A stretch of DNA of 64,000 nt from a virus: positions 4,993-68,992 of IMG/VR virus record IMGVR_UViG_3300037487_000581. One strand, written 5' to 3'. Of this stretch, positions 134-11,973 are shown piece by piece. Positions within the stretch are counted from its first letter, which is position 1; each line of letters begins with the position of its first letter. The notes below the pieces were generated by a model, which was not told where the DNA came from, made no database searches, and worked only from the letters and a program-made list of their open reading frames with translations. The position numbers were made by a program, and so were the translations under genes.

Positions 134-406
134 TCATGTGGTTTCTCCTAGTGCGCGGATAGCGTCTGCGCAATCTGAAAGTTCTTCGTTAACTACCGAA
201 GCACGATGCGGACCTTTAAAACTCTCGCATGTTTTTGCACAACGCTCAATTGTTGATTTCTTTGCTGCTTTCCAAACGTCCCAACAGATTTGTTTGAAGC
301 TGAGTAATGTGTATCGCCCCTCTTCTGGATGCCATTCATCGTGGATCGTATAACCCCTTACGCGATACCAATGTTCAAAATCTGCATCTGGTAAATGTGG
401 TTTCAT
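134..406 (-). CDS. Hypothetical early protein with C-terminal ERC..C...AIRALG module
   Basis: 90-aa ORF; C-terminus shared with ORFs 2302-2619 and 2619-3098. Confidence 0.7.
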   Translation of the reverse strand: MKPHLPDADFEHWYRVRGYTIHDEWHPEEGRYTLLSFKQICWDVWKAAKKSTIERCAKTCESFKGPHRASVVNEELSDCADAIRALGETT

Positions 407-430
407 TTCATTCCCTTCCCGTGTTAGCCG

Positions 431-658
431 TCACCATGACATCGTGTCGCGCAGGGTGGAAATCTTCACGTCGTAGAGGCCAGTCTTCTGCATTTCTCCC
501 TTGGCCGCTTCGAGCATCGCCAGCCGCTCCTTCTGCTCGGCGATCTTGCGCTCCAAGTTCTCGCCACACGTCATCTGTTGCATCGGGTCTTGCTTCATTT
601 CATATCCGCCAAGGACTCCAATGACTCCTTGTGACGCACTATTGCTTTTTTCGTACAT
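431..658 (-). CDS. Hypothetical coiled-coil protein bounded by attC-like boxes
   Basis: 75 aa with AAGGA SD; GTTAGCC at 423-429 and an attC-like left half at 700-718. Confidence 0.65.
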   Translation of the reverse strand: MYEKSNSASQGVIGVLGGYEMKQDPMQQMTCGENLERKIAEQKERLAMLEAAKGEMQKTGLYDVKISTLRDTMSW

Positions 659-699
659 GAGTATTTCCTTTTCAGTTGTGCCGCGTTTTGTCGTGTCAC

Positions 700-740
700 G
701 GATAACACGTCGCTCAACCCGGACGCTGCGCCGGCAAGCT
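700..740 (+). other. attC-like left half-site (R''-spacer-L'')
   Basis: GGATAAC-acgtc-GCTCAAC; 703-718 (TAACACGTCGCTCAAC) is identical to 1748-1763 of the complete site. Confidence 0.7.
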
Positions 741-770
741 CTTCAACCTTCATCGCTTCATCCACGTTCA

Positions 771-1082
771 TCACTCATTGCATATTCCTGACTCCAAGGC
801 CAGCACCTCATCCAACGCATCCCTGACTGCTATCTGTATGCGCGCTGTTGTTCGTGTCACGTCTTGAATGCTTCCGAGCAGGTACGGTGTTACTTTCCGC
901 GCGGCTTGCAACGCCAGTTCGTCACGCGTGTTTGGAGTAATTTCCGTGTTCAATCTCCCTGCTGCGTATCCGGCATCAAAACAAGTACGCCCATACGCCA
1001 GCATTTGCATTCCGCTGTAGGCGTCAAACGATAGAGATTCGCAATCTTCTGGTTCAGGACGTTCTGGTAAATGTTGATTCAT
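771..1082 (-). CDS. Hypothetical early protein
   Basis: 103-aa ORF with GGAGA SD, co-oriented with neighbours. Confidence 0.7.
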   Translation of the reverse strand: MNQHLPERPEPEDCESLSFDAYSGMQMLAYGRTCFDAGYAAGRLNTEITPNTRDELALQAARKVTPYLLGSIQDVTRTTARIQIAVRDALDEVLALESGICNE

Positions 1083-1264
1083 TTCAGCTCTCCAATCTCG
1101 CTAATACTTTTTCAAGTATTGGTTTGGGTAAACCCTCAACCATACGATCAATATTTGTTGGCCGTCACCTTGGATTAATCCAGCTATAGCCTTCCGCAGA
1201 CATCGCATTCGCTACCCGAATGTGATGATGTTTCTTAATCGCTCGTACTATGTGGTGTTTCATT

Positions 1265-1501
1265 TCAGTCCTCCTCCATCGCATCTCGCGCTCGGCTTAA
1301 ACGCAGATCAAAATGCAATGCATCAAGCAACCGCGTCTGGTCTTCTTTGATGCCCGCCTGCTTGAACTGATCCATCAAATTGGATAGCGCCACTGCATCA
1401 GTAAAGTTATCCATAGGAAGAAACACTGACGGACAGCCTTGCAGTTTGAACTCTGCTATGCCCGATGAAGTTGCTACGCTTCCTGTCCAGTTGAAATTCA
1501 T
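1265..1501 (-). CDS. Hypothetical early protein
   Basis: ORF track 1265-1537; likely start MNFNW at 1501, downstream of an AAGGA SD. Confidence 0.6.
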   Translation of the reverse strand: MNFNWTGSVATSSGIAEFKLQGCPSVFLPMDNFTDAVALSNLMDQFKQAGIKEDQTRLLDALHFDLRLSRARDAMEED

Positions 1502-1549
1502 GCTGTGATTCCTTGTAAATACGCGGTTACATGTCAAATATGCTGTGTT

Positions 1550-1723
1550 CTATGCGTTAGGCGGCGTAAGGTTCGGAAGTTTTGGGTTTTTGTTCCACGC
1601 CAATGAAAAAGATTTGTACCCGAAATTCACCCAAAGCAAGTGCCTATGGCTATCTTGTATTTTGCTATTTCTGTACCCAATGCCGTAGGCAAACTGATTA
1701 CTCATTGATGTATATTTTTGCAT
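1550..1723 (-). CDS. 57-aa hypothetical protein in attC-bounded cassette (not in ORF track)
   Basis: AAGGAG-N6-ATG; MQKYTSMSNQ...LPNLTPPNA*; the final codons run through the GTTAGGC box at 1556-1562. Confidence 0.55.
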   Translation of the reverse strand: MQKYTSMSNQFAYGIGYRNSKIQDSHRHLLWVNFGYKSFSLAWNKNPKLPNLTPPNA

Positions 1724-1744
1724 TCATATCTCCTTGTGTTCTCC

Positions 1745-1812
1745 GCCTAACACGTCGCTCAACTCGGGAGCAGGCGGCTTTATCGCCTGCGCCGGTTAGC
1801 TAGGCGTTAGGC
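1745..1812 (+). other. Complete integron attC-type recombination site (68 bp)
   Basis: R'' GCCTAAC 1745-1751, 5-nt spacer, L'' GCTCAAC 1757-1763 (extra C), inner stem GCAGGCG/CGCCTGC, L' GTTAGC 1795-1800, 5-nt spacer, R' GTTAGGC 1806-1812. Confidence 0.85.
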
Positions 1813-2148
1813 GTCCGGGTCATCGGGTATCGCCATCCAGTAGCGCGGGCCATCCGCGCCGGTCAATCGGTATTTGTCCCACACCATTTCCCACCCGCCA
1901 TCGACATACCGGACGGAGTGCGGAACATCTGAGTTGTGCAGTAGCGCGAGAATTGCCGTTCCATCTTCCGGCGCAAGTCCCATCGGCTGCCAACCGTTTT
2001 GCATGGCATCGTGACGGGCCTGCAAATCCTCCATGTGCCGCGCGGCCTGCCTCAATGCTTCGGCAGATGTTGGAGACTGAAATTCAATCGCCGCATTCCT
2101 GCGTATAAACCCAGCGTATCGTTGCGTCATTGTCATCGTCTTCTCCAA
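1807..2148 (-). CDS. DUF551-like phage protein
   Basis: WQPM..APEDGT.IL...WMAIP motif; the stop codon lies inside the attC R' box. Confidence 0.7.
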   Translation of the reverse strand: MEKTMTMTQRYAGFIRRNAAIEFQSPTSAEALRQAARHMEDLQARHDAMQNGWQPMGLAPEDGTAILALLHNSDVPHSVRYVDGGWEMVWDKYRLTGADGPRYWMAIPDDPDA

Positions 2149-2153
2149 TCGTT

Positions 2154-2243
2154 TCAGCCTAACTCTCGTTTACAGTTGCCTTCGCTCGGCATCGTGTGAA
2201 TATCAGCATCAGACCCGCAGAACGGGCAAGGTTTCAGTTCCAT
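2154..2243 (-). pseudogene. Truncated Lar-family (restriction alleviation) Zn-ribbon gene fragment
   Basis: AGGAGG/AAGGA SD; MELKPCPFCGSDA... ends after 29 aa in an attC-like half-site and lacks the second CxxC. Confidence 0.6.
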
Positions 2244-2301
2244 TTCCTTTCCTCCTGGGTTGTCATGCCCAACAAACCAATCAAGCACCATTGGTCTAGT
2301 G

Positions 2302-2619
2302 TCATTTCTCATCTCCTAATGCGCGGATAGCTTCTGCGTACTGTTGTCCGTCTACAATGTCTAAGCAGACGCTTGCACATCTCTCCCGCTCTGCTGCCAG
2401 CGCCAGCAAGACCAGATCTTCACATTTTACCCATGTTCTATCCGTCGCTTCCTGTTCAGCTCGTTGATAGGTTTCGTTCAGTTCTTTGCGACGTTCTTCC
2501 TGATCCCGCAAGTTTTGCTGCCGCAGCATTCTATGAGAATCAATTAGTTGCTCAACAGGTATAGTCACACCCAGTTCCCTTGCATAATCTTCAAGCATTT
2601 TCATTTCCCATACACTCAT
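2302..2619 (-). CDS. Hypothetical protein with AERERC...AIRALG tail
   Basis: 105 aa; TAATG overlap with the upstream ORF. Confidence 0.75.
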   Translation of the reverse strand: MSVWEMKMLEDYARELGVTIPVEQLIDSHRMLRQQNLRDQEERRKELNETYQRAEQEATDRTWVKCEDLVLLALAAERERCASVCLDIVDGQQYAEAIRALGDEK

Positions 2620-3098
2620 TATGATTCCCCTAGTGCGCGGATAGCGTCACAGCATTCCCATGCTGTTTGCCGAAAACCCCTGATATGTATCTGCTCGCAC
2701 GCCTTCAGGCAACGCTCCCGTTCCTTAGCCAGCACAGCACGCAGGGCGGTGTCATCTACTGGCTGGGCGAGGGCTTCATCAGCAAACTCAAAAGCTTCAC
2801 GCAAGTGAGCATAGTCAATACAGTCGCTACACGGTGGAGCTATGTGGCATGAGCAGTTGCTGTCTGGAGGTCTATCAATAGCTTCAACCATAGTTTCAAG
2901 CGCATCCCGCAGCACTTTCTCCCGTGCTTGGGAGGCTGCGAGGTTAATTTGCAGATCGCGCACGTCATTGCACACGTAGTCTTCCAGCTTTCGAACCTCC
3001 GCTCGCAGCGTCTCAATTTTGTCGGCTGCTTCTCGCATGACACGCGAATATCCAGAGGTCGGGTTATAGCTCCGTAGCTTTTCAATAAGGTCAGTCAT
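2619..3098 (-). CDS. Hypothetical protein with CSCH..PPC..C motif and AIRALG tail
   Basis: 159 aa; coiled coil plus Cys cluster; AGGAGG SD. Confidence 0.75.
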   Translation of the reverse strand: MTDLIEKLRSYNPTSGYSRVMREAADKIETLRAEVRKLEDYVCNDVRDLQINLAASQAREKVLRDALETMVEAIDRPPDSNCSCHIAPPCSDCIDYAHLREAFEFADEALAQPVDDTALRAVLAKERERCLKACEQIHIRGFRQTAWECCDAIRALGES

Positions 3099-3423: not shown

Positions 3424-3918
3424 TCAAGCATCGATAGAGATCATACCGCGCTTGATTGCGTAACCGACAAAGCTCACCGTTGCAAACTCTTTGCTAGTAC
3501 CGTCACGAGCTTCTTGAGTGAACTTCTCAGGAGCCTGAGCAAAGAACGTCGCGAGGTCGGTGTTGTCAGCCAGAATCTGAGCCACTTCTTTACCCGCTTT
3601 TCCAGCAGCAATCAAAGTCTCAGGTTTCAACACCGTATAAGTGCCTTCCTTAGGAACAGCCTTACGAGGACCGCGAACCTTGGCTTCACCGTTAGCCGTG
3701 ACCTTCGGTGCTTTAGCAGGAGCATTCTCAGCTTTCATTTCCTTGAACACATCACCGAGACCAAACTTTTCAGCAGTCTTGTGATGAGTTACCAGAGTTT
3801 CATCTTCATTACAATCATATTCGTCACCGGCCAGAACCCAACCAACGACATTAAATCCGTCTTCCTTGTTTCCGCCTACCAACATTCCCGCTTTTTCCGC
3901 TACCATGACTTCGCTCAT
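3424..3918 (-). CDS. Lys/Ala-rich protein, possible DNA-binding; paralogue of 7078-7581
   Basis: Start MSEVMV after AGGAG; codon choices resemble the capsid gene; C-terminal NTD...EF...AIKRGMI motif. Confidence 0.7.
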   Translation of the reverse strand: MSEVMVAEKAGMLVGGNKEDGFNVVGWVLAGDEYDCNEDETLVTHHKTAEKFGLGDVFKEMKAENAPAKAPKVTANGEAKVRGPRKAVPKEGTYTVLKPETLIAAGKAGKEVAQILADNTDLATFFAQAPEKFTQEARDGTSKEFATVSFVGYAIKRGMISIDA

Positions 3919-4037
3919 TTTATGACTCCTATGCCCTTCGGCAAAATGTAACTCGAATTGACCACCAACTCGATGACTAAATTGTATATCAGGTATTTTC
4001 AAAACACAACAACTATTTTCATTCCTCACGAATCTCA

Positions 4038-4220
4038 CTAATTGATTTGTTTGTTGATCAAACTGTATATTGTCAACGGTGATTCTTTAACAACGAATAC
4101 TGTCTGATCAACACAAACCACATCTGTCTCTCCATCCTCATTGACTAGAAATGCAATGATCTTAGAAGGGTTGACAAACACATCTTCTTGTTCATCGCCC
4201 GCTAAGGTGAGAACAATCAT
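4038..4220 (-). CDS. Small FlbD-like phage protein
   Basis: VFVNP..I......T.V......V.ES pattern; GAGG SD. Confidence 0.55.
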   Translation of the reverse strand: MIVLTLAGDEQEDVFVNPSKIIAFLVNEDGETDVVCVDQTVFVVKESPLTIYSLINKQIN

Positions 4221-4325
4221 TTCCTACCTCCTTTCTCCGATTCAGCATGAGCTTGACGTTGATTACGATAGGACTTAACAATAATCCTACGCAATGCCGT
4301 GGTGCATCCTTTGAATTGAATCTTG

Positions 4326-4568
4326 TCACATTTCCGCATAAGTCATCCTTTCAAGTATGTTGCGTTTCATTAACTCAAGAGCGAGCAGTATCTCAGCATT
4401 GGACATACGTGCCGAGACCACATTGACATCCCATTGCCCTGCCACATCATTGACTGTCAACATCACAAACATGTCAATCTTGTTGTAGTCTACTTCACTG
4501 ATTACTTCAATGGGTGACTTATCCAATGGGTCAGCAATGATACCTGGGAATAGATTATGTACGTTCAT
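4326..4568 (-). CDS. Hypothetical protein
   Basis: 80 aa; ATGA overlap with the upstream ORF. Confidence 0.65.
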   Translation of the reverse strand: MNVHNLFPGIIADPLDKSPIEVISEVDYNKIDMFVMLTVNDVAGQWDVNVVSARMSNAEILLALELMKRNILERMTYAEM

Positions 4569-4834
4569 CTAGACACCGTTATGTCATAATTAAGATTGTC
4601 AACAACACGATCAATCGCCCTACTAACGTCGTCTTCAATTGCTTCCCATATATCAGTTGTTGCTTGCTTGCGTATAACATCCTGCACTGTCTCATCATTC
4701 TCAATGACATACTTGACTGTGGATTGCACTGACCTATCATAAGATGTATCACAATTACCAATGACTGCCGCTTGCACTTCAAGATCCTCTCTAAGTAACT
4801 TGAGAAGTAACTCTTTCAACATTTGTTCAAACAT
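4565..4834 (-). CDS. Hypothetical protein
   Basis: Likely start MFEQML after GAGGAG. Confidence 0.65.
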   Translation of the reverse strand: MFEQMLKELLLKLLREDLEVQAAVIGNCDTSYDRSVQSTVKYVIENDETVQDVIRKQATTDIWEAIEDDVSRAIDRVVDNLNYDITVSR

Positions 4835-4835
4835 T

Positions 4836-5072
4836 TTATTTCTCCTCATCTTCAACGACACGATAAACAGGAGACAATCCTCCGTCAATCAGCTCTTGGT
4901 CGTATAACCATTTGGCAGCGGTCATCATACCATCATACGGCCACGATGCTGTGACATGTGGGCAAGTGACGAGACTATTCGCCAATGCAACGACATTCTC
5001 ATGATGAACAGCGAGGTCCAATGTGTCAAACACCTCACCATCTTCAGTTTCAAATACCTGTTTGATTGCCAT
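4836..5072 (-). CDS. Hypothetical protein (FETEDGEVF N-terminus)
   Basis: 78 aa; first gene after the 5114-5142 promoter. Confidence 0.7.
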   Translation of the reverse strand: MAIKQVFETEDGEVFDTLDLAVHHENVVALANSLVTCPHVTASWPYDGMMTAAKWLYDQELIDGGLSPVYRVVEDEEK

Positions 5073-5102
5073 TTCGTACCCCTATAGAACACGGTAAAAT
5101 TA

Positions 5103-5142
5103 CCGGCAAGCAAATAATAACGCTTGCCGGTGTCTATTACAA
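5103..5142 (-). promoter_or_regulatory. Stem-loop promoter
   Basis: TTGTAA-N17-TATTAT; the -10 lies in the loop of a 9-bp inverted repeat (5103-5111/5122-5130). Confidence 0.7.
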
Positions 5143-5322
5143 TACCGAAGCACCCATCCGTTTATCATACAACTTCTTCATCACAGCGTTCAATGAACGA
5201 AGAATCTGACCCTTGTAAAGATAATTACCACTTTTGACAGCTATGATTTCTTCATGAACAATCTCTCTGAGTAACTGAACTTGTTGTTCACTTAGAGTGA
5301 TCGTCAACGTCTCCTTGCTCAT
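5137..5322 (-). CDS. Hypothetical protein
   Basis: 61 aa; ATGA overlap with DUF932 gene. Confidence 0.6.
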   Translation of the reverse strand: MSKETLTITLSEQQVQLLREIVHEEIIAVKSGNYLYKGQILRSLNAVMKKLYDKRMGASVL

Positions 5323-6305
5323 AACGCGAGGGCCAACTCAAATGCCTTCGTCTTCAACGTGTTGCCGACTCCATACCACGCCGAGTTGACACGAGCGTCT
5401 GCTGTGCGGTGACCAGTGTGATGGTCAATTGTTTCAGTAACCGCATTCAGTAAACCCCACATGGTATCCTCGGCCGAGGTAAGTTTGCTGCCCATACCCT
5501 CACCCTTAAACAGCGCCCACACATTGGCACACTTCTGCATGACAGCGGGATTCTGGTCTTCAACACCGATACTTGGGTCACCAAACAGTTCAATAAGAAA
5601 TTCAACTGCTTTGTCACGTTCAACAGTCTTCGCTGCCAGTAAACCAATCTGCTCACTAAAGCGGTTCCACCCTTGGTCAATGAATCCGAGCTGTTCCTTG
5701 ACCTCAGCGGGTTTCCATACGCGGTTGTGCGGAACCTTGATGCGCGTGTTCTCATCCTTCACCGCAACTGATAACGTATTGAAACACACGACACGAACAG
5801 ACGTAAACTGTGCCGTCGTTGCCAACGTACCGTCGCATGACGTGGTCAACAAGAGATAACCCTTGACCTTGTCATCACCCGGCAATACCGCCATTTTCTT
5901 CGTGTTAGCTAGGGCAAAGAACCGCTTACCACCGAACAAAACACCTGCTGTTTCAAGTTCCAATCCAGCGGTATCAACGAGGTCGCGATAGAACTCCAGC
6001 ACCTCAATTGGTTGCACGATATTGTAACTGCTGGACACCACCGACAACGGTGCGTTCGTATCGCTCCTGTATAACACGTTCTTGTCAGGATAGATCAGAG
6101 TGTTTGTCAATGCCGACATGTCATCACTGACCACATCAAACTTTACCGCAGTGCGGAAGATCTCCCAATCCATGTGAGCAGACTTCGCCCACGTTTCAAT
6201 GGGAGCACCTGCCTCCAACTCGTTGCCGAGACCGTGCCACGCCGATTGATTAATGAATGCAAAGGCGGCTTCGCCTGTCGTCATATCGATTTCATGAGCC
6301 ATCAT
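5319..6305 (-). CDS. DUF932 / phage-plasmid TIGR03299-like protein
   Basis: AWHGLG, LYRSDT..PL.VVS..Y..VQP, ETAG.L..G, YLLL.TSCDGTLAT, SVRVVC.NT and T.WGLLNAVTE..DH motifs. Confidence 0.9.
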   Translation of the reverse strand: MMAHEIDMTTGEAAFAFINQSAWHGLGNELEAGAPIETWAKSAHMDWEIFRTAVKFDVVSDDMSALTNTLIYPDKNVLYRSDTNAPLSVVSSSYNIVQPIEVLEFYRDLVDTAGLELETAGVLFGGKRFFALANTKKMAVLPGDDKVKGYLLLTTSCDGTLATTAQFTSVRVVCFNTLSVAVKDENTRIKVPHNRVWKPAEVKEQLGFIDQGWNRFSEQIGLLAAKTVERDKAVEFLIELFGDPSIGVEDQNPAVMQKCANVWALFKGEGMGSKLTSAEDTMWGLLNAVTETIDHHTGHRTADARVNSAWYGVGNTLKTKAFELALAL

Positions 6306-6525
6306 TCATCTCCTCAATAGGTATCAAATCGAGATTTTCTACTATCCAAATTTTGGTCTGATATTCATCTTCCGATTCTCCAGAATATCCTCCATAACCT
6401 GCGACAATGAAGCACTCTGCCCCATCAGTAAACTGAAGACGAAGATAACCTTCGTCGTCATACTGTTCTGGTTTCATTTGTGTGGTAGACGCAATGGTCT
6501 TACCAACCAAATCTTCAAACTTCAT
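6292..6525 (-). CDS. Hypothetical protein
   Basis: 77 aa; AGGAG SD; LVGKTI N-terminus common in small phage proteins. Confidence 0.7.
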   Translation of the reverse strand: MKFEDLVGKTIASTTQMKPEQYDDEGYLRLQFTDGAECFIVAGYGGYSGESEDEYQTKIWIVENLDLIPIEEMNDGS

Positions 6526-6561
6526 TTGTTTCTCCTACCCCGCCCGAAGGCGGGAGTTAGT

Positions 6562-6789
6562 TTAAGAAGTTGTTTCCGTTTCAACTACCGGCGGAAGAGT
6601 GTCAACCAACTGGTTGTCCTTAATCATCATGATGGTGGGGATATCGCCATCGGGTGTGAACAGTGCGTCACTACCGTACCCATTCATGTAACGCACCTCG
6701 CACTTACTCATCACTTCGGTGAGCTTGTTGAACGTTACCTGATCCATAACCAGATAGCGGCTATACTCAATACGCATTGCGAATTTCAT
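6562..6789 (-). CDS. Hypothetical protein
   Basis: 75 aa after the 6808-6859 promoter; followed by a CTTCGG-loop hairpin at ~6538-6556. Confidence 0.7.
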   Translation of the reverse strand: MKFAMRIEYSRYLVMDQVTFNKLTEVMSKCEVRYMNGYGSDALFTPDGDIPTIMMIKDNQLVDTLPPVVETETTS

Positions 6790-6807
6790 TTTGTTACCCC
6801 TATGAAC

Positions 6808-6859
6808 TGCGGCACAATTACCGCAAACAAATTGTGCCGCATAATGGTTTCAATTACAA
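6808..6859 (-). promoter_or_regulatory. Stem-loop promoter
   Basis: TTGTAA-N17-CACAAT; 12-bp inverted repeat 6808-6819/6830-6841. Confidence 0.65.
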
Positions 6860-7078
6860 CTACTGACGCACTTTACCTTCGTCAGTATAACCACGAATCG
6901 CGCTCACCAAAGGATGGTCAATAGAAAAGAAGTAACATGCCCAAGCAATCGGCTCCTCACCGACCGGAACTTCGATAGTGGATACGAAACGTATATCAGA
7001 CTCATACACGTGACGGCCTGCGAAATCCTTACGTTCGGTTCTGACCGGTTCCAACTGTTCATAGACATTGTATAACAT
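6860..7078 (-). CDS. Hypothetical protein
   Basis: 72 aa; TAATG overlap. Confidence 0.65.
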   Translation of the reverse strand: MLYNVYEQLEPVRTERKDFAGRHVYESDIRFVSTIEVPVGEEPIAWACYFFSIDHPLVSAIRGYTDEGKVRQ

Positions 7079-7581
7079 TATTCTTCTCCATCGCTAGTTT
7101 TGATAATCCAACCACGTTTCAATGCCCAATCCATCTGAGCTTTGAATGTGAATTCAGACGCACCTGTTGTACGATACTTCTCATTGGTCGCGTGCCCCTC
7201 GTTTTCCCAATCTTTGATCGCAGTAACGAAGTCAGTGTTACGTTCCATTACAGCCATCATGTCGTGACGGATATCACCATCAGGTGCGCGGAGACCGTTC
7301 TTAACCCACGAATATGTTCCAACCAGACTGTTATTACCGACTCGGTTGCGACGTTTAGGAGCACCGAATGGATTAACGGCTTCCATTATCTCGTACTCAG
7401 TTCCGTATGGCAGTTCCTTGGACTTAAAGACCTGACGCACCAATGCCCGTTTGAATCCTTCGGGTTGGTTGTTTGCAAACTTGGCAGCGGGTATCTCTAG
7501 ATACTTGATACCGACCATCTTTACATCTGCGAAAGGGGCTTGCTTGAACCATCCTTCGTTCACTACTTTAATGATCTTCAT
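7078..7581 (-). CDS. Hypothetical protein, paralogue of 3424-3918
   Basis: 167 aa; ATAGGGG SD; GTY, NTD, EF and ALKRGWI motifs. Confidence 0.75.
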   Translation of the reverse strand: MKIIKVVNEGWFKQAPFADVKMVGIKYLEIPAAKFANNQPEGFKRALVRQVFKSKELPYGTEYEIMEAVNPFGAPKRRNRVGNNSLVGTYSWVKNGLRAPDGDIRHDMMAVMERNTDFVTAIKDWENEGHATNEKYRTTGASEFTFKAQMDWALKRGWIIKTSDGEE

Positions 7582-7732
7582 TTTGAAGACCCCTATATTC
7601 GCCGTTCCCAGAGGACCGACTTCTCAACGCTTTCTTTCAAGTTGCGCGTTGCTCAACAACTTTCTCTGTTTGTTCCTTTAACGCCCCAACCATACAGAAA
7701 AGAAGGCGGTGCAGCACTGCACAACTCAAATA

Positions 7733-10691: not shown

Positions 10692-10888
10692 TCTAGTTCC
10701 TCGATCAGTCGCTGCGTGTTCTTGATACGCGACAACCAATAGTCAACTTGGCGATGCTGTTCGCTGGCAGTTTTCCAATCGCGGTCATCAAGGCTGTTGA
10801 TTGTCATCTCAAGTGCGATACGCGTCTTTTCAATTTGCTGCTCGACCTTGTCAAGTAGCCACGCTTCAATTTGTTGCTTGGTCATCAT
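10688..10888 (-). CDS. Hypothetical protein
   Basis: 66 aa; first gene after the 10916-10958 promoter. Confidence 0.65.
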   Translation of the reverse strand: MMTKQQIEAWLLDKVEQQIEKTRIALEMTINSLDDRDWKTASEQHRQVDYWLSRIKNTQRLIEELE

Positions 10889-10908
10889 GTCTATACCCCT
10901 ATAAATTA

Positions 10909-10958
10909 CCGTTACATAACGGCCTGCAAACTATAGCGCAGGCCGTTATCGCTTACAA
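10909..10958 (-). promoter_or_regulatory. Stem-loop promoter
   Basis: TTGTAA-N17-TATAGT; the -10 lies in the loop of a perfect 12-bp inverted repeat (10916-10927/10938-10949); palindrome CCGTTA-CA-TAACGG at 10909-10922. Confidence 0.75.
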
Positions 10959-10965
10959 CACCATT

Positions 10966-11973
10966 TTAATCACCGTACCCAATGCGACGCAGTAGTTCTT
11001 GGAAGGATTGTTTGCCACCCGCTCCTTGTAGATTACCGCGCCCTGCTGTCTGCAATTGACCAAGAGTCGGCTGACCACCAGAGGCTTGTATCAATTTCTG
11101 TATAATCCCCTCATTGGCACCTGAGTTCATCCGTTGACTACCTTGACGCAATGCGTTGAGCAACGAAGTATTAACTGGCGGGGTCGGCCCACCTTGCGGC
11201 ATTTGCAATCCAGGAGGAGGCGTTCTAGTTCCCTGACCTAACGTCGGCATACGCGCACCGCGACCCAATGCTTGATCAGCACCGGGAGGCATGTACTGAC
11301 CACGACCAGCGAAAGCGGGGATCTGAGGAGACGGAGGCATTTGACCACCTTGTCCTAGCGGGCGCGGACCTTGCATCTTAGCCAACATCGCTTTGACAGC
11401 ACCGGGATTCATACCGTCCACAGGGCGCACATTGGATATTGCCGTTGTTGCGCCGGGGTGGTTTACCGCACCACGCACCGCACCAGTAGTTATCCCTGCC
11501 CTTGGTAATGCCCTAGGCGCTGCTCCTGCTAATGCGCCTATACCTTTGGTTAGGCCAAGCGCACCGAGGCCCATAAGCGGTTTCATTAAAGGTAACAATT
11601 CTTCAGGGTAAGCGCCTTCCACAGCACCTTCACCCATGTCAGGGCGATTGGGAGACAATGCTGCATCAATGTCAGCTTGCATACCAGCATACGGGTCACT
11701 TGCCATACTATGTGCTTGGGGATTACCTGGAACTGAAAGACTTTCACCGGCCTCAATCAAATTGGGATTCTTAATTTGAGGATTGAGACGAATGAGTTCG
11801 CGAACTTTGACACCGTATTCTGCGGCAATACTTGACAACGTGTCACCGGGTTTGATTTCTCTATTTGAAACAGGTGGGGAGATATTTGCTACGATTTCAG
11901 CCATCGTCCTAACTGGGGATTCTTCATCTCCAAGACCTAGTGATTTCAGAGTGCTAGAACGATAATAATCCAT
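10966..11973 (-). CDS. LysM peptidoglycan-binding protein with Pro/Gly/Gln-rich tail
   Basis: [43 protein letters not shown] is a LysM domain. Confidence 0.85.

What the first reader, a model, noticed from the sequence alone, without database searches (positions are those of the whole stretch)
420..2290. Integrase-less array of integron attC-type sites separating phage early genes, in antisense polarity
Seen: a complete 68-bp attC at 1745-1812 (GCCTAAC-N5-GCTCAAC...GTTAGC-N5-GTTAGGC, with the extra C in L'' and an internal stem). Further left halves lie at 700-718 (16 nt identical to the complete site), 2157 (GCCTAAC-tctcg) and 2267 (GCCCAAC-aaacc-AATCAAGC). R'-type boxes lie at 423-429 and 1556-1562. 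All have the same orientation and sit at gene boundaries, giving at least four cassette-sized units: 431-658, 1550-1723, 1807-2148 and the Lar fragment. Known: in integrons the strand carrying the L'' extra base on the left is normally the coding strand, and IntI recombines the folded bottom strand. Here every enclosed gene is on the opposite strand, the cargo is phage-type (DUF551-like, Lar-like), and no tyrosine recombinase is encoded in the window. Inference: the phage lineage captures or shuffles early genes as attC cassettes using a host IntI or an unseen recombinase, and older sites decay to half-sites.
Basis: partly seen in the sequence, partly recalled or inferred. Interest (0 to 1): 0.88.

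Follow-up and report, generated by a model that had tools for sequence, protein, structure and literature searches.

The report
Integron attC cassette remnants in phage
A sediment phage with no recombinase of its own carries one intact integron recombination site and several broken ones between its small accessory genes, and the same kind of site marks swappable gene cassettes in dozens of other phage contigs.

Summary
The 68-bp element at 1745-1812 is a genuine integron-type attC. A covariance model built on its family scores it 80.7 bits. The same model finds the paradigm attC of aadA1 in a class 1 integron.

The family gives 270 co-oriented sites in 85 viral contigs. In 3 of 55 records checked it lies beside an IntI integron integrase.

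Across arrays, the left box of a site pairs with the right box of the previous site: 79 of 144 perfect, against 17 of 144 for its own right box. That is the signature of crossover at G|TT.

The window is not an array. It has one intact site, three truncated left parts (700, 2157, 2267) and one right-end remnant (1550-1562). The box at 423-429 fails the consensus.

The whole phage genome encodes no tyrosine or serine recombinase.

The antisense polarity is real and holds for the family: 133 sites against 1.

The only structural variant seen, 1091|2922, is unrelated to the GTT boxes.

attC clusters in virulent phages are already published (Qi et al. 2023). The homogeneous phage family with inverted cassettes is a new variant.

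Earlier notes of this scan report integron-like arrays in other phages, with different recombinases.

The parts
1745..1812 (+). Intact 68-bp attC: R'' GCCTAAC, spacer ACGTC, L'' GCTCAAC (extra C), inner stem GCAGGCG/CGCCTGC, L' GTTAGC, spacer TAGGC, R' GTTAGGC. The predicted crossover lies between G1806 and T1807.
   Evidence: Sequence; fold; R1 80.7 bits, E 6e-20; family alignment A1 with compensatory changes in 4 inner-stem pairs.
1557..1806 (+). Cassette 1, about 250 bp, with matching ends. It starts with TTAGGC of the R' remnant and ends with the intact attC. Its gene is the 57-aa ORF 1550..1723 on the - strand, whose last codons run into the remnant of the previous site.
   Evidence: R' at 1556-1562 is complementary 4 of 4 to R'' at 1745-1751. 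AAGGAGAT precedes the ATG at 1723. The ORF has only one non-self relative.
1550..1562 (+). Right-end remnant (spacer plus R' GTTAGGC) of a lost attC.
   Evidence: Direct repeat D19: 13 of 14 bases identical to 1800-1813. GTTRRRY occurs in the first 4 kb of the + strand only at 1556 and 1806.
1807..2163 (+). Cassette 2. It starts with TTAGGC, whose TTA is the complement of the gene's TAA stop, and ends at the R'' remnant at 2157-2163. Its gene is the 113-aa ORF 1807..2148 on the - strand (probable start at residue 5, giving 109 aa).
   Evidence: 42 relatives, most ending ...PDDPDA-stop. Relatives are flanked by attC in L235, L239 and L240 on the opposite strand. G+C is 0.58-0.64 against about 0.45 for the phage.
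2157..2163 (+). R'' box (GCCTAAC) of cassette 2. The rest of its attC has been replaced by the 3' end of the Lar-like fragment.
   Evidence: One of 3 GCCTAAC in 64 kb. It is complementary to R' at 1806-1812. The spacing to the ribosome-binding site GGAGAAG and the ATG is as in L235 and L239.
2154..2243 (-). Truncated Lar-like gene (MELKPCPFCGS...). It has its own ribosome-binding site and ends inside the R'' box of cassette 2.
   Evidence: Pfam Lar_restr_allev 22.2 bits (cut-off 28.6), profile positions 2-18 of 58; phrog_599. Sequence.
2267..2286 (+). Left half (R'' GCCCAAC, spacer AAACC, L'' AATCAAGC) of another attC type, about 10 nt upstream (in gene direction) of the Lar ribosome-binding site. 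Its right half is missing.
   Evidence: The pattern occurs once in the window and in 0 of 100 shuffles. The same left half opens model-detected sites in L004 and L031.
700..790 (+). Left part of a ~122-nt long attC variant: R'' GGATAAC, ACGTC, GCTCAAC and part of the central region that holds a small ORF on the - strand. The right half is lost, so it cannot fold as a site.
   Evidence: R1 21.9 bits, E 0.002 over 700-748. Repeats D8 and D17. Alignment A2 with 8 full long variants. tblastn match of ORF 595..774 to L094.

Best explanation
WHAT IT IS
The region holds the remains of integron gene cassettes inside the small-gene block of a recombinase-less, probably virulent siphovirus-like phage. 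I call it siphovirus-like because its DNA polymerase is about 45% identical to those of Acidovorax, Pseudomonas and Xanthomonas siphoviruses.

Site 1745-1812 is an intact IntI-type attC. It belongs to a very homogeneous family that circulates among environmental phage contigs.

HOW THE FAMILY IS BUILT
- The gene lies on the strand that IntI recombines, the 'bottom' strand.
- In gene direction each cassette therefore reads: folded site, ribosome-binding site, gene, then the stop codon TAA, whose last A is the last base of the cassette.
- The first 15 bases of the next site give stops in all three frames.

SHOWN
- The site's identity.
- The family's association with IntI in other phage contigs.
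- The crossover-at-G|TT signature in arrays.
- The reversed polarity.
- Two cassettes in the window have matching ends.

INFERRED
- The cassettes reached this phage through an IntI supplied in trans, by a host integron or by a co-resident IntI-bearing phage. Alternatively they came by recombination with a phage that already carried them.
- Without an integrase in the lineage, the sites are being eroded by ordinary deletions. These keep each gene's 5' leader, which explains why left halves survive.
- The single intact site could still recombine with an attI, an attC or a secondary site if IntI is present.
For: FOLD AND STRUCTURE
- Sequence and fold.
- Family alignment of 54 distinct sites. Four inner-stem pairs change on both sides, with 0-1 unpaired cells. 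92.9% of cells are paired, against 20-47% when the partner is slid.

SCORES AND COUNTS
- R1 scores 80.7 bits in the window.
- R1 gives 282 hits, 270 after removing opposite-strand shadows, in 85 of 100 sources. 47 loci hold at least 3 sites, and only 3 loci mix strands.

INTEGRASE
- TIGR02249 scores above its 265-bit cut-off in G005 (446 bits), G016 (466) and G027 (468).
- In all three the integrase diverges from the attC top strand.
- The G005 IntI is 54.9% identical to IntI1.

CONTROL
- R1 finds attC of aadA1 (38.1 bits, E 9e-9) just 3' of aadA1 and on its coding strand.

CROSSOVER SIGNATURE
- R''(i) against R'(i-1): mean 3.11 of 4 complementary, 79 of 144 perfect.
- R''(i) against its own R'(i): mean 2.23, 17 of 144 perfect.
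- Random pairs: mean 2.11.
- Wilcoxon p = 3e-10.

POLARITY
- A ribosome-binding site, a start and an ORF of at least 40 aa within 45 nt after R'' on the bottom strand: 133 sites bottom only, 1 top only, 5 both, 79 neither, of 218.
- The GC3 test gives 49 bottom, 3 top and 88 ambiguous of 140 intervals.
- Bottom-strand cassette genes include DNA methyltransferases.

THE CONTIGS ARE PHAGES
- 9 of 55 records are at least 90% complete, and 2 have terminal repeats.
- A phrog_2 terminase is present in 15 of 55.
- A tail protein is present in G005.

THE WINDOW'S OWN CASSETTES
-.
Against: - Only one site in the window is intact, and no integrase is in the genome. Present activity is therefore unproven.
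- The only structural variant found in other samples, a joint at 1091|2922 in contigs of X2 and X4, removes the whole block at points unrelated to any GTT box.
- No excised circle or cassette-sized deletion was seen. Only assembled contigs, not raw reads, could be laid, so such forms would mostly be invisible.
- The G+C shift (high from 1750 to 2050) spans the attC of one cassette and the gene of the next. It does not follow a cassette boundary.
- L102/L241, a relative of the 113-aa gene, has no detectable attC nearby.
- The 57-aa cargo has no relatives in other contexts.
- R1 was built from sites selected by a 16-mer of the window's own site. The family counts are therefore biased towards look-alikes.
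- IntegronFinder's own attC model was not available.
- No close relative of this phage could be fetched for a locus comparison.
Confidence: 0.8

Rival explanations
1. The sites are real attCs but only passengers. The block came in by homologous or illegitimate recombination with another phage that carried cassettes. IntI has never acted in this lineage, and the conserved 68-bp sites serve at most as patches of homology for phage mosaicism.
For: - No integrase is in the genome.
- The only variant seen (1091|2922) has 2 bases of microhomology and no GTT box.
- The half-sites are cut at arbitrary points.
- The high-G+C stretch crosses a cassette boundary.
- The same sample holds other contigs with nearly the same site, which offers homology (X1 records 2 and 3).
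Against: - Two consecutive cassettes in the window keep exactly complementary ends at the predicted crossover.
- In the family at large, junctions follow the IntI rule, not the ends of the homology.
- The 113-aa cassette keeps its own ends beside different neighbours.
Confidence: 0.15
2. The hairpin is an RNA-level element of the phage transcript, such as an RNase III-type processing site, an insulator or a stabiliser between genes. Its likeness to attC is convergent.
For: - It lies on the transcribed strand between a stop codon and a ribosome-binding site.
- It folds equally well on both strands.
- Its stem shows compensatory changes.
- It supplies stops in three frames (read).
Against: - No Rfam family matches at E of 10 or better.
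- No terminator-like site was called there, and no U-run follows the stem.
- The unpaired spacers are invariant, which RNA folding does not require.
- The family sits beside IntI in canonical geometry.
- The family shows the hybrid-site signature.
- The model built on it finds attC of aadA1.
- An added RNA role on top of recombination is not excluded.
Confidence: 0.03
3. It is a chance palindrome or an assembly chimera, in which a repeated attC in the sample caused a false join of phage and integron DNA.
For: - The site is repeated in the source sample.
- Depth rises from 30.9 to 44.3 in the bin 1743-1876, because other contigs share 32 bases there.
Against: - An independent assembly of the same run gives one 7,909-nt contig that covers 1-2937 at even depth.
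- Both flanks carry genes in the phage's own style, including a paralogue (2302..2619) of a gene outside the block (134..406).
- An E-value of 6e-20 excludes chance.
Confidence: 0.02

Closest known systems
Clusters of attC sites lacking an integrase (CALINs) in virulent phages (Qi, Rajabal, Ghaly, Tetu, Gillings 2023, Front Microbiol, PMC9892861; abstract and sections 2.1 and 3.4 read)
   Same: - attC sites in phage genomes that have no IntI.
- The cargo includes DNA methyltransferases.
- The proposed role is as a route of cassette flow.
- In that paper, 5 of 6 tested phage sites were recombined by IntI1.
   Different: - That paper found 17 CALINs in 10,705 cultured or NCBI phage genomes, each with at least 2 sites. 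It describes same-direction cassettes as typical.
- In the passages I searched it does not mention genes on the bottom strand or one homogeneous site family shared by many phages.
- Here the window has one intact site plus fragments, so it would not meet the two-site rule.
Class 1 integron (IntI1, attI1, attC of aadA1)
   Same: - R'' RYYYAAC, a 5-nt spacer, L'' with an extra C, a stem, L', a spacer, then R' GTTRRRY.
- R1 aligns attC of aadA1 end to end.
- The IntI of contig G005 is 54.9% identical to IntI1.
- The integrase diverges from the attC top strand.
   Different: - In class 1 integrons the gene lies on the top strand, 5' of its attC, and is read away from intI1.
- In the phage family the gene lies on the bottom strand, 3' of its attC in gene direction, and is read towards intI and co-directionally with it.
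- The window has no integrase and no attI.
Sedentary chromosomal integrons with homogeneous attC (for example the Vibrio cholerae repeats; recalled, not tested here)
   Same: Many cassettes share nearly the same attC sequence (86% mean column identity in A1).
   Different: The homogeneous sites here are spread over many different phage contigs rather than lying in one chromosomal array.
Conserved boundary hairpins that promote phage mosaicism (promoter-early stem-loops of T4-like phages; recalled, not tested here)
   Same: Short conserved hairpins between small early genes mark the places where gene content differs.
   Different: Those act through homologous recombination and carry promoters. 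Here the junction rule is that of IntI crossover, and no promoter was called at the site.

Membership tests
Integron attC site | Outer inverted repeats R'' RYYYAAC and R' GTTRRRY | tested here: met
   GCCTAAC at 1745-1751 and GTTAGGC at 1806-1812. AAC and GTT are invariant in 54 of 54 family members.
Integron attC site | Inner imperfect repeats L''/L' with an extra-helical base on the R''/L'' arm, and unpaired spacers of about 5 nt | tested here: met
   GCT[C]AAC against GTTAGC, with spacers ACGTC and TAGGC unpaired in the fold. The layout matches attC of aadA1 in the R1 alignment.
Integron attC site | Significant score with an attC covariance model | tested here: inconclusive
   IntegronFinder's model was not available. 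My own model R1, built from this family, gives 80.7 bits. It also detects attC of aadA1 (38.1 bits) and canonical bacterial arrays such as L151 and L167.
Integron attC site | Family members lie in co-oriented arrays next to an integron integrase, which diverges from the top strand | tested here: met
   Met for the family: G005, G016 and G027, 3 of 55 records checked. Not met for the window's own genome.
Integron attC site | Crossover at G|TT, so each site in an array is a hybrid whose R'' matches the start of its own cassette | tested here: met
   79 of 144 perfect against 17 of 144 for the same site; p = 3e-10. In the window, 1556/1745 and 1806/2157 are both 4 of 4.
Integron attC site | Recombined by IntI as a folded bottom strand | not testable with these tools
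   This needs the attC x attI conjugation assay.
Integron attC site | Cassette gene on the top strand, 5' of its attC (usual, not strictly defining) | tested here: not met
   Genes lie on the bottom strand in the window and in the family, 133 against 1.
CALIN (cluster of attC sites lacking an integrase) | At least two attC sites close together and no integrase nearby | tested here: inconclusive
   There is no integrase. Only one site is complete. The second model hit (700-748, 21.9 bits) is a truncated site that cannot fold.
Complete integron | intI gene plus attI plus cassettes | tested here: not met
   No TIGR02249 match at E of 1 or better and no PF00589 match at E of 0.01 or better in the 68,992-bp record.
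Lar restriction-alleviation protein (PF14354) | Score over the Pfam cut-off across the domain | tested here: not met
   22.2 bits against a cut-off of 28.6, covering profile positions 2-18 of 58 only. It is a truncated fragment.

The most novel reading that the evidence does not exclude
Freshwater and sediment phages share a cassette pool of their own. Its units are built 'site first, gene second', with the gene on the recombined strand. They are exchanged by IntI1-like integrases that sit as ordinary genes inside temperate-phage operons, downstream of and co-directional with the cassettes. Integrase-less phages such as this one are clients of that pool, drawing accessory and counter-defence genes (methyltransferases, Lar-like genes) from it. 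This would be a phage-side mirror of the bacterial integron, not just stray bacterial cassettes in phages.
Probability: 0.4. Interest if true: 0.8.

Novelty: new variant of a known kind. Interest (0 to 1): 0.6.

Why it matters
Integrons are known as bacterial gene-capture platforms. One paper has shown that a few phages carry their parts.

Here the same recombination-site family turns up in at least 85 viral contigs, including complete genomes. Integrases 55% identical to the clinical IntI1 are embedded in phage operons. The gene polarity is consistently opposite to the textbook cassette.

If this holds, three things follow:
- Phages own a cassette economy that trades accessory and probably anti-restriction genes.
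- This gives a direct, testable route of cassette flow between phages and bacterial integrons of the soil and freshwater group, the group from which class 1 integrons are thought to come.
- It raises a mechanistic question: why the recombined strand is the coding strand in phages.

For the window itself the matter is modest. It is a decaying client with one usable site.

Tried and rejected
SEARCHES THAT FOUND NOTHING
- Megablast and blastn of the region against 50,697 phage records found nothing.
- Rfam at E of 10 or better gave only chance matches.
- I looked for close relatives of this phage through the 204-aa, 159-aa and 57-aa proteins. These gave none, or one remote locus, so no locus comparison with relatives was possible.
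- The promoter and terminator scan gave nothing at the site.

TESTS THAT WERE UNINFORMATIVE OR WRONG
- Comparing ORF length alone could not call the coding strand in G+C-rich contigs (109 bottom against 62 top of 171). I replaced it with a codon-position G+C test and a ribosome-binding-site-plus-start test.
- My first idea was that the 57-aa cassette is a low-G+C island bounded by the boxes. I dropped it. The phage baseline is itself about 0.45, and the deviant stretch is the high-G+C 1750-2050.
- The genome-contig scan with the 16-mer is mostly chance. My own estimate is about 280 chance matches in 596 billion bases on two strands. I used only the loci that the model then confirmed, and I ran the model on 80 of the 120 stretches returned.

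READS
- Only assembled contigs were on offer. X2, X3 and X4 cover small parts of the stretch.
- No excised circle or cassette-sized joint was seen. For contigs this is no evidence of absence.

COVERAGE OF THE CENSUS
- IntI and terminase were sought in 55 of the 85 records with sites. The other 30 were not examined.

LITERATURE
I made three searches and one malformed search. Beyond Qi et al. 2023 I found no paper on integrons in phages, and none on wholly inverted cassette arrays. Subscription journals and supplementary files were not searchable.
Full report
WHERE THE WINDOW LIES
The window is bases 4993-68992 of a 68,992-bp IMG/VR virus record rated 100% complete. All large ORFs lie on the - strand.

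The record encodes a DNA polymerase, a helicase, a primase, a portal, a large terminase and a tail fibre. The polymerase is at most 45% identical to those of Acidovorax, Pseudomonas, Xanthomonas and Burkholderia siphoviruses. The phage therefore has no close cultured relative.

The DNA of the region matches nothing in 50,697 phage records. A run search places it in a sediment metagenome.

No tyrosine recombinase, integron integrase or serine recombinase is found anywhere in the record.

THE OBSERVATION
It folds as single-stranded DNA at about -19 kcal/mol on either strand, and 0 of 200 shuffles fold as well.

A second, partial copy lies at 700-748, and the right end is repeated at 1550-1563.

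THE FAMILY
A 16-base stretch of the site gave 99 stretches in IMG/VR. Most of these carry the whole element.

I aligned 54 distinct copies. AAC, the left spacer, the left inner repeat, CCGGTTA and GTT are invariant. The sequence outside TAAC...GTT is free.

Four pairs of the inner stem change on both sides, with 0-1 unpaired cells. Overall 92.9% of cells are paired, against 20-47% when the partner is slid.

A covariance model of this alignment (R1) gives the following in the window with filters off:
- 80.7 bits for 1745-1812 on the + strand;
- 21.9 bits for 700-748;
- nothing else at E below 3.

In 100 sources (986 kb) R1 gives 282 hits at E of 0.01 or better. After removing opposite-strand shadows, that is 270 sites in 85 loci. 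Of these loci, 47 have three or more sites and only 3 mix strands. Spacings of 200-1500 bp and a single orientation are the look of cassette arrays.

IS IT AN INTEGRON SITE?
Four independent lines say yes.

1. Integrase. The curated integron-integrase model TIGR02249 scores above its 265-bit cut-off in 3 of the 55 records I checked: G005 (446 bits), G016 (466) and G027 (468). In each, the integrase lies next to an array and diverges from the model's + orientation. That is the canonical geometry. The G005 integrase is 54.9% identical to IntI1.

2. Paradigm control. In an E. coli plasmid with intI1-dfrA15-aadA1, R1 finds the attC of aadA1 (38.1 bits, E 9e-9). It lies immediately 3' of aadA1 and on its coding strand. 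This fixes what 'top strand' means for R1.

3. Bacterial arrays. Among the 80 of 120 genome-collection stretches that I scanned, lower-scoring sites form arrays in MAGs such as L151 and L167. There, ORFs fill the top strand.

4. The hybrid-site rule. This is the most telling line. IntI cuts between G and TT. The variable four bases of a site's left box should therefore pair with the right box of the previous site, which is the start of its own cassette, and not with its own right box.

The 144 non-redundant neighbour pairs show this:
- previous site: mean complementarity 3.11 of 4, and 79 pairs perfect;
- own right box: mean 2.23, and 17 pairs perfect;
- random pairs: mean 2.11;
- Wilcoxon p = 3e-10.

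Homologous recombination within the conserved core would not produce this pattern.

POLARITY
- On the bottom strand, a ribosome-binding site, a start and an ORF of at least 40 aa begin within 45 nt after the left box at 133 of 218 non-redundant sites. The count is 1 for the top strand after the right box, 5 for both and 79 for neither.
- A codon-position G+C test gives 49 bottom, 3 top and 88 ambiguous of 140 intervals.
- Named bottom-strand cargo includes a C5 methyltransferase in G027 (read from the translation), and two N6/N4 methyltransferases and a DHHA1 protein in G005.

In all three integrase-bearing contigs the cassette genes run towards intI and are co-directional with it. Phage genes continue beyond: a second integrase in G027, a RusA-like ORF in G016 and a tail protein in G005.

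In gene direction a cassette therefore reads: site, ribosome-binding site, gene, TAA. The last A of that stop is the last base of the cassette. The next site begins TAACGCCTAGCTAAC, which holds stops in all three frames (read).

ARE THE CONTIGS PHAGES?
- Of the 55 records, 9 are rated at least 90% complete and 2 have direct terminal repeats. None of those carries IntI.
- One terminase family alone (phrog_2) is found in 15 of 55. These include G003 and G004, whose loci L095 and L011 hold 8 sites each, and G022, whose locus L026 holds 6.
- A few loci share replication or structural proteins with the window phage at 25-52% identity. The carriers are therefore diverse.

WHAT THE WINDOW HOLDS
The window holds one intact site and wreckage.

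Cassette 1 (1557-1806) starts at the right-box remnant GTTAGGC (1556-1562) and ends with the intact site. Its ends are complementary 4 of 4. It carries the 57-aa ORF, which has only one non-self relative.

Cassette 2 (1807-2163) starts with TTAGGC, whose TTA is the complement of the gene's TAA stop. It ends at GCCTAAC (2157-2163), one of only three such heptamers on the + strand of 64 kb. The rest of its site has been replaced by the end of a truncated Lar-like gene.

The gene of cassette 2 (113 aa) has 42 relatives, most ending ...PDDPDA-stop. In viral loci these relatives are flanked by attC on the opposite strand:
- In L235 a site overlaps the stop codon.
- In L239 and L240 a site ends 17-30 nt before the start.
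- 17 of the 18 model hits in these loci are antisense to the gene.
- L235 and L239 keep GTTAGGC upstream and GCCTAA|C at the stop, but have different neighbours. That is cassette behaviour.

The relative L241 shows no site.

2267-2286 is the left half of another site type. It matches in 0 of 100 shuffles, and the same half opens sites in L004 and L031.

700-790 is the left part of a ~122-nt long variant, which in 8 other loci holds a small internal ORF.

The box at 423-429 fails the consensus, and 431-658 has no support as a unit.

Left halves survive because they form the 5' leader of the gene downstream. That last point is inference.

IS IT ACTIVE HERE?
This is not shown. Only contigs could be laid. 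In two other studies' runs (X2, X4), contigs identical to the phage elsewhere join 1091 to 2922. The join skips 1,830 bp, which includes the whole attC block and two-thirds of the 159-aa ORF, with 2 bases of microhomology and no GTT box.

That is an ordinary deletion or insertion. It shows the block is dispensable, and it counts against ongoing attC-driven change in this lineage.

The source run also holds other contigs that share 32 bases of the site's right end and diverge 3 bases after the right box. The family is therefore abundant in that sample.

WHAT IS KNOWN
Qi et al. 2023 (PMC9892861; abstract and sections 2.1 and 3.4 read) screened 10,705 phage genomes.
- They found integron parts in 21 phages, including 17 integrase-less attC clusters.
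- They showed that IntI1 recombines 5 of 6 attC sites from virulent phages.
- They noted methyltransferase cargo.

The kind is therefore known. In the passages I searched they do not describe reversed gene polarity or a homogeneous family shared among phages. Three further text searches found no such report.

Earlier notes of this scan describe integron-like arrays in other phages, run by Xer-type or other small recombinases. Those are different systems. I did not test them, and they did not change my reading.

VERDICT
The window is a new and rather decayed member of a published kind. The family it led to is a new variant: an IntI1-like integrase inside phage operons, a homogeneous attC, and genes on the recombined strand. 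That variant deserves a proper census and a recombination assay.

Noticed in passing
window 1092-2921: Contigs from two other studies' runs (X2, X4) are identical to the phage on both sides but join 1091 directly to 2922. They lack 1,830 bp, which hold nine small ORFs and all the attC material. The joint truncates the 159-aa ORF and shows 2 bases of microhomology.
   Followed up: partly
window 134-406, 2302-2619, 2619-3098 (- strand): Three paralogous small proteins end in the same motif (C..AIRALGE/D). Their 3' ends form a 44-nt direct repeat family (D1). No Pfam family matched. phrog_343 matched only the first.
   Followed up: no
L094:5036-5156, L040:1241-1363, L070, L045, L073, L012, L054, L011: A ~122-nt long variant of the attC carries, inside its central region, a ribosome-binding site and a small conserved ORF (MNVDEAMKVEEL...) on the bottom strand. 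The ORF reads out through the left arm of the site. Its function is unknown.
   Followed up: partly
L031 (G027) 3575-5747; L232 (G016) 6004-7661; L231 (G005) 10805-11791: IntI1-like integron integrases (one is 54.9% identical to IntI1) lie inside phage-type operons. They are co-directional with the cassette genes and downstream of them. In G027 a second, ordinary tyrosine integrase follows directly.
   Followed up: partly
G012, G020, G022, G048: Large-terminase matches in four attC-bearing viral records contain 1-3 in-frame TGA codons. This could mean split genes, frameshifts, introns or a recoded stop.
   Followed up: no
window 588-609, 1072-1093, 1253-1274, 4824-4845: A conserved translation-start region (CAT-TTCA-...-CTCC on the + strand, i.e. 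GGAG..TGAAATG on the coding strand) recurs at the starts of several small genes (D2). One copy is the left edge of the 1,830-bp indel.
   Followed up: no
L127, L142, L180, L113 (bacterial MAG contigs): The high-scoring phage-type site (84-92 bits), with bottom-strand genes, also occurs in contigs binned to Dechloromonas, Methylovulum, Gallionellaceae and Nitrosomonadales MAGs. These may be prophages or mis-binned phage contigs, and they hint at the host range.
   Followed up: no
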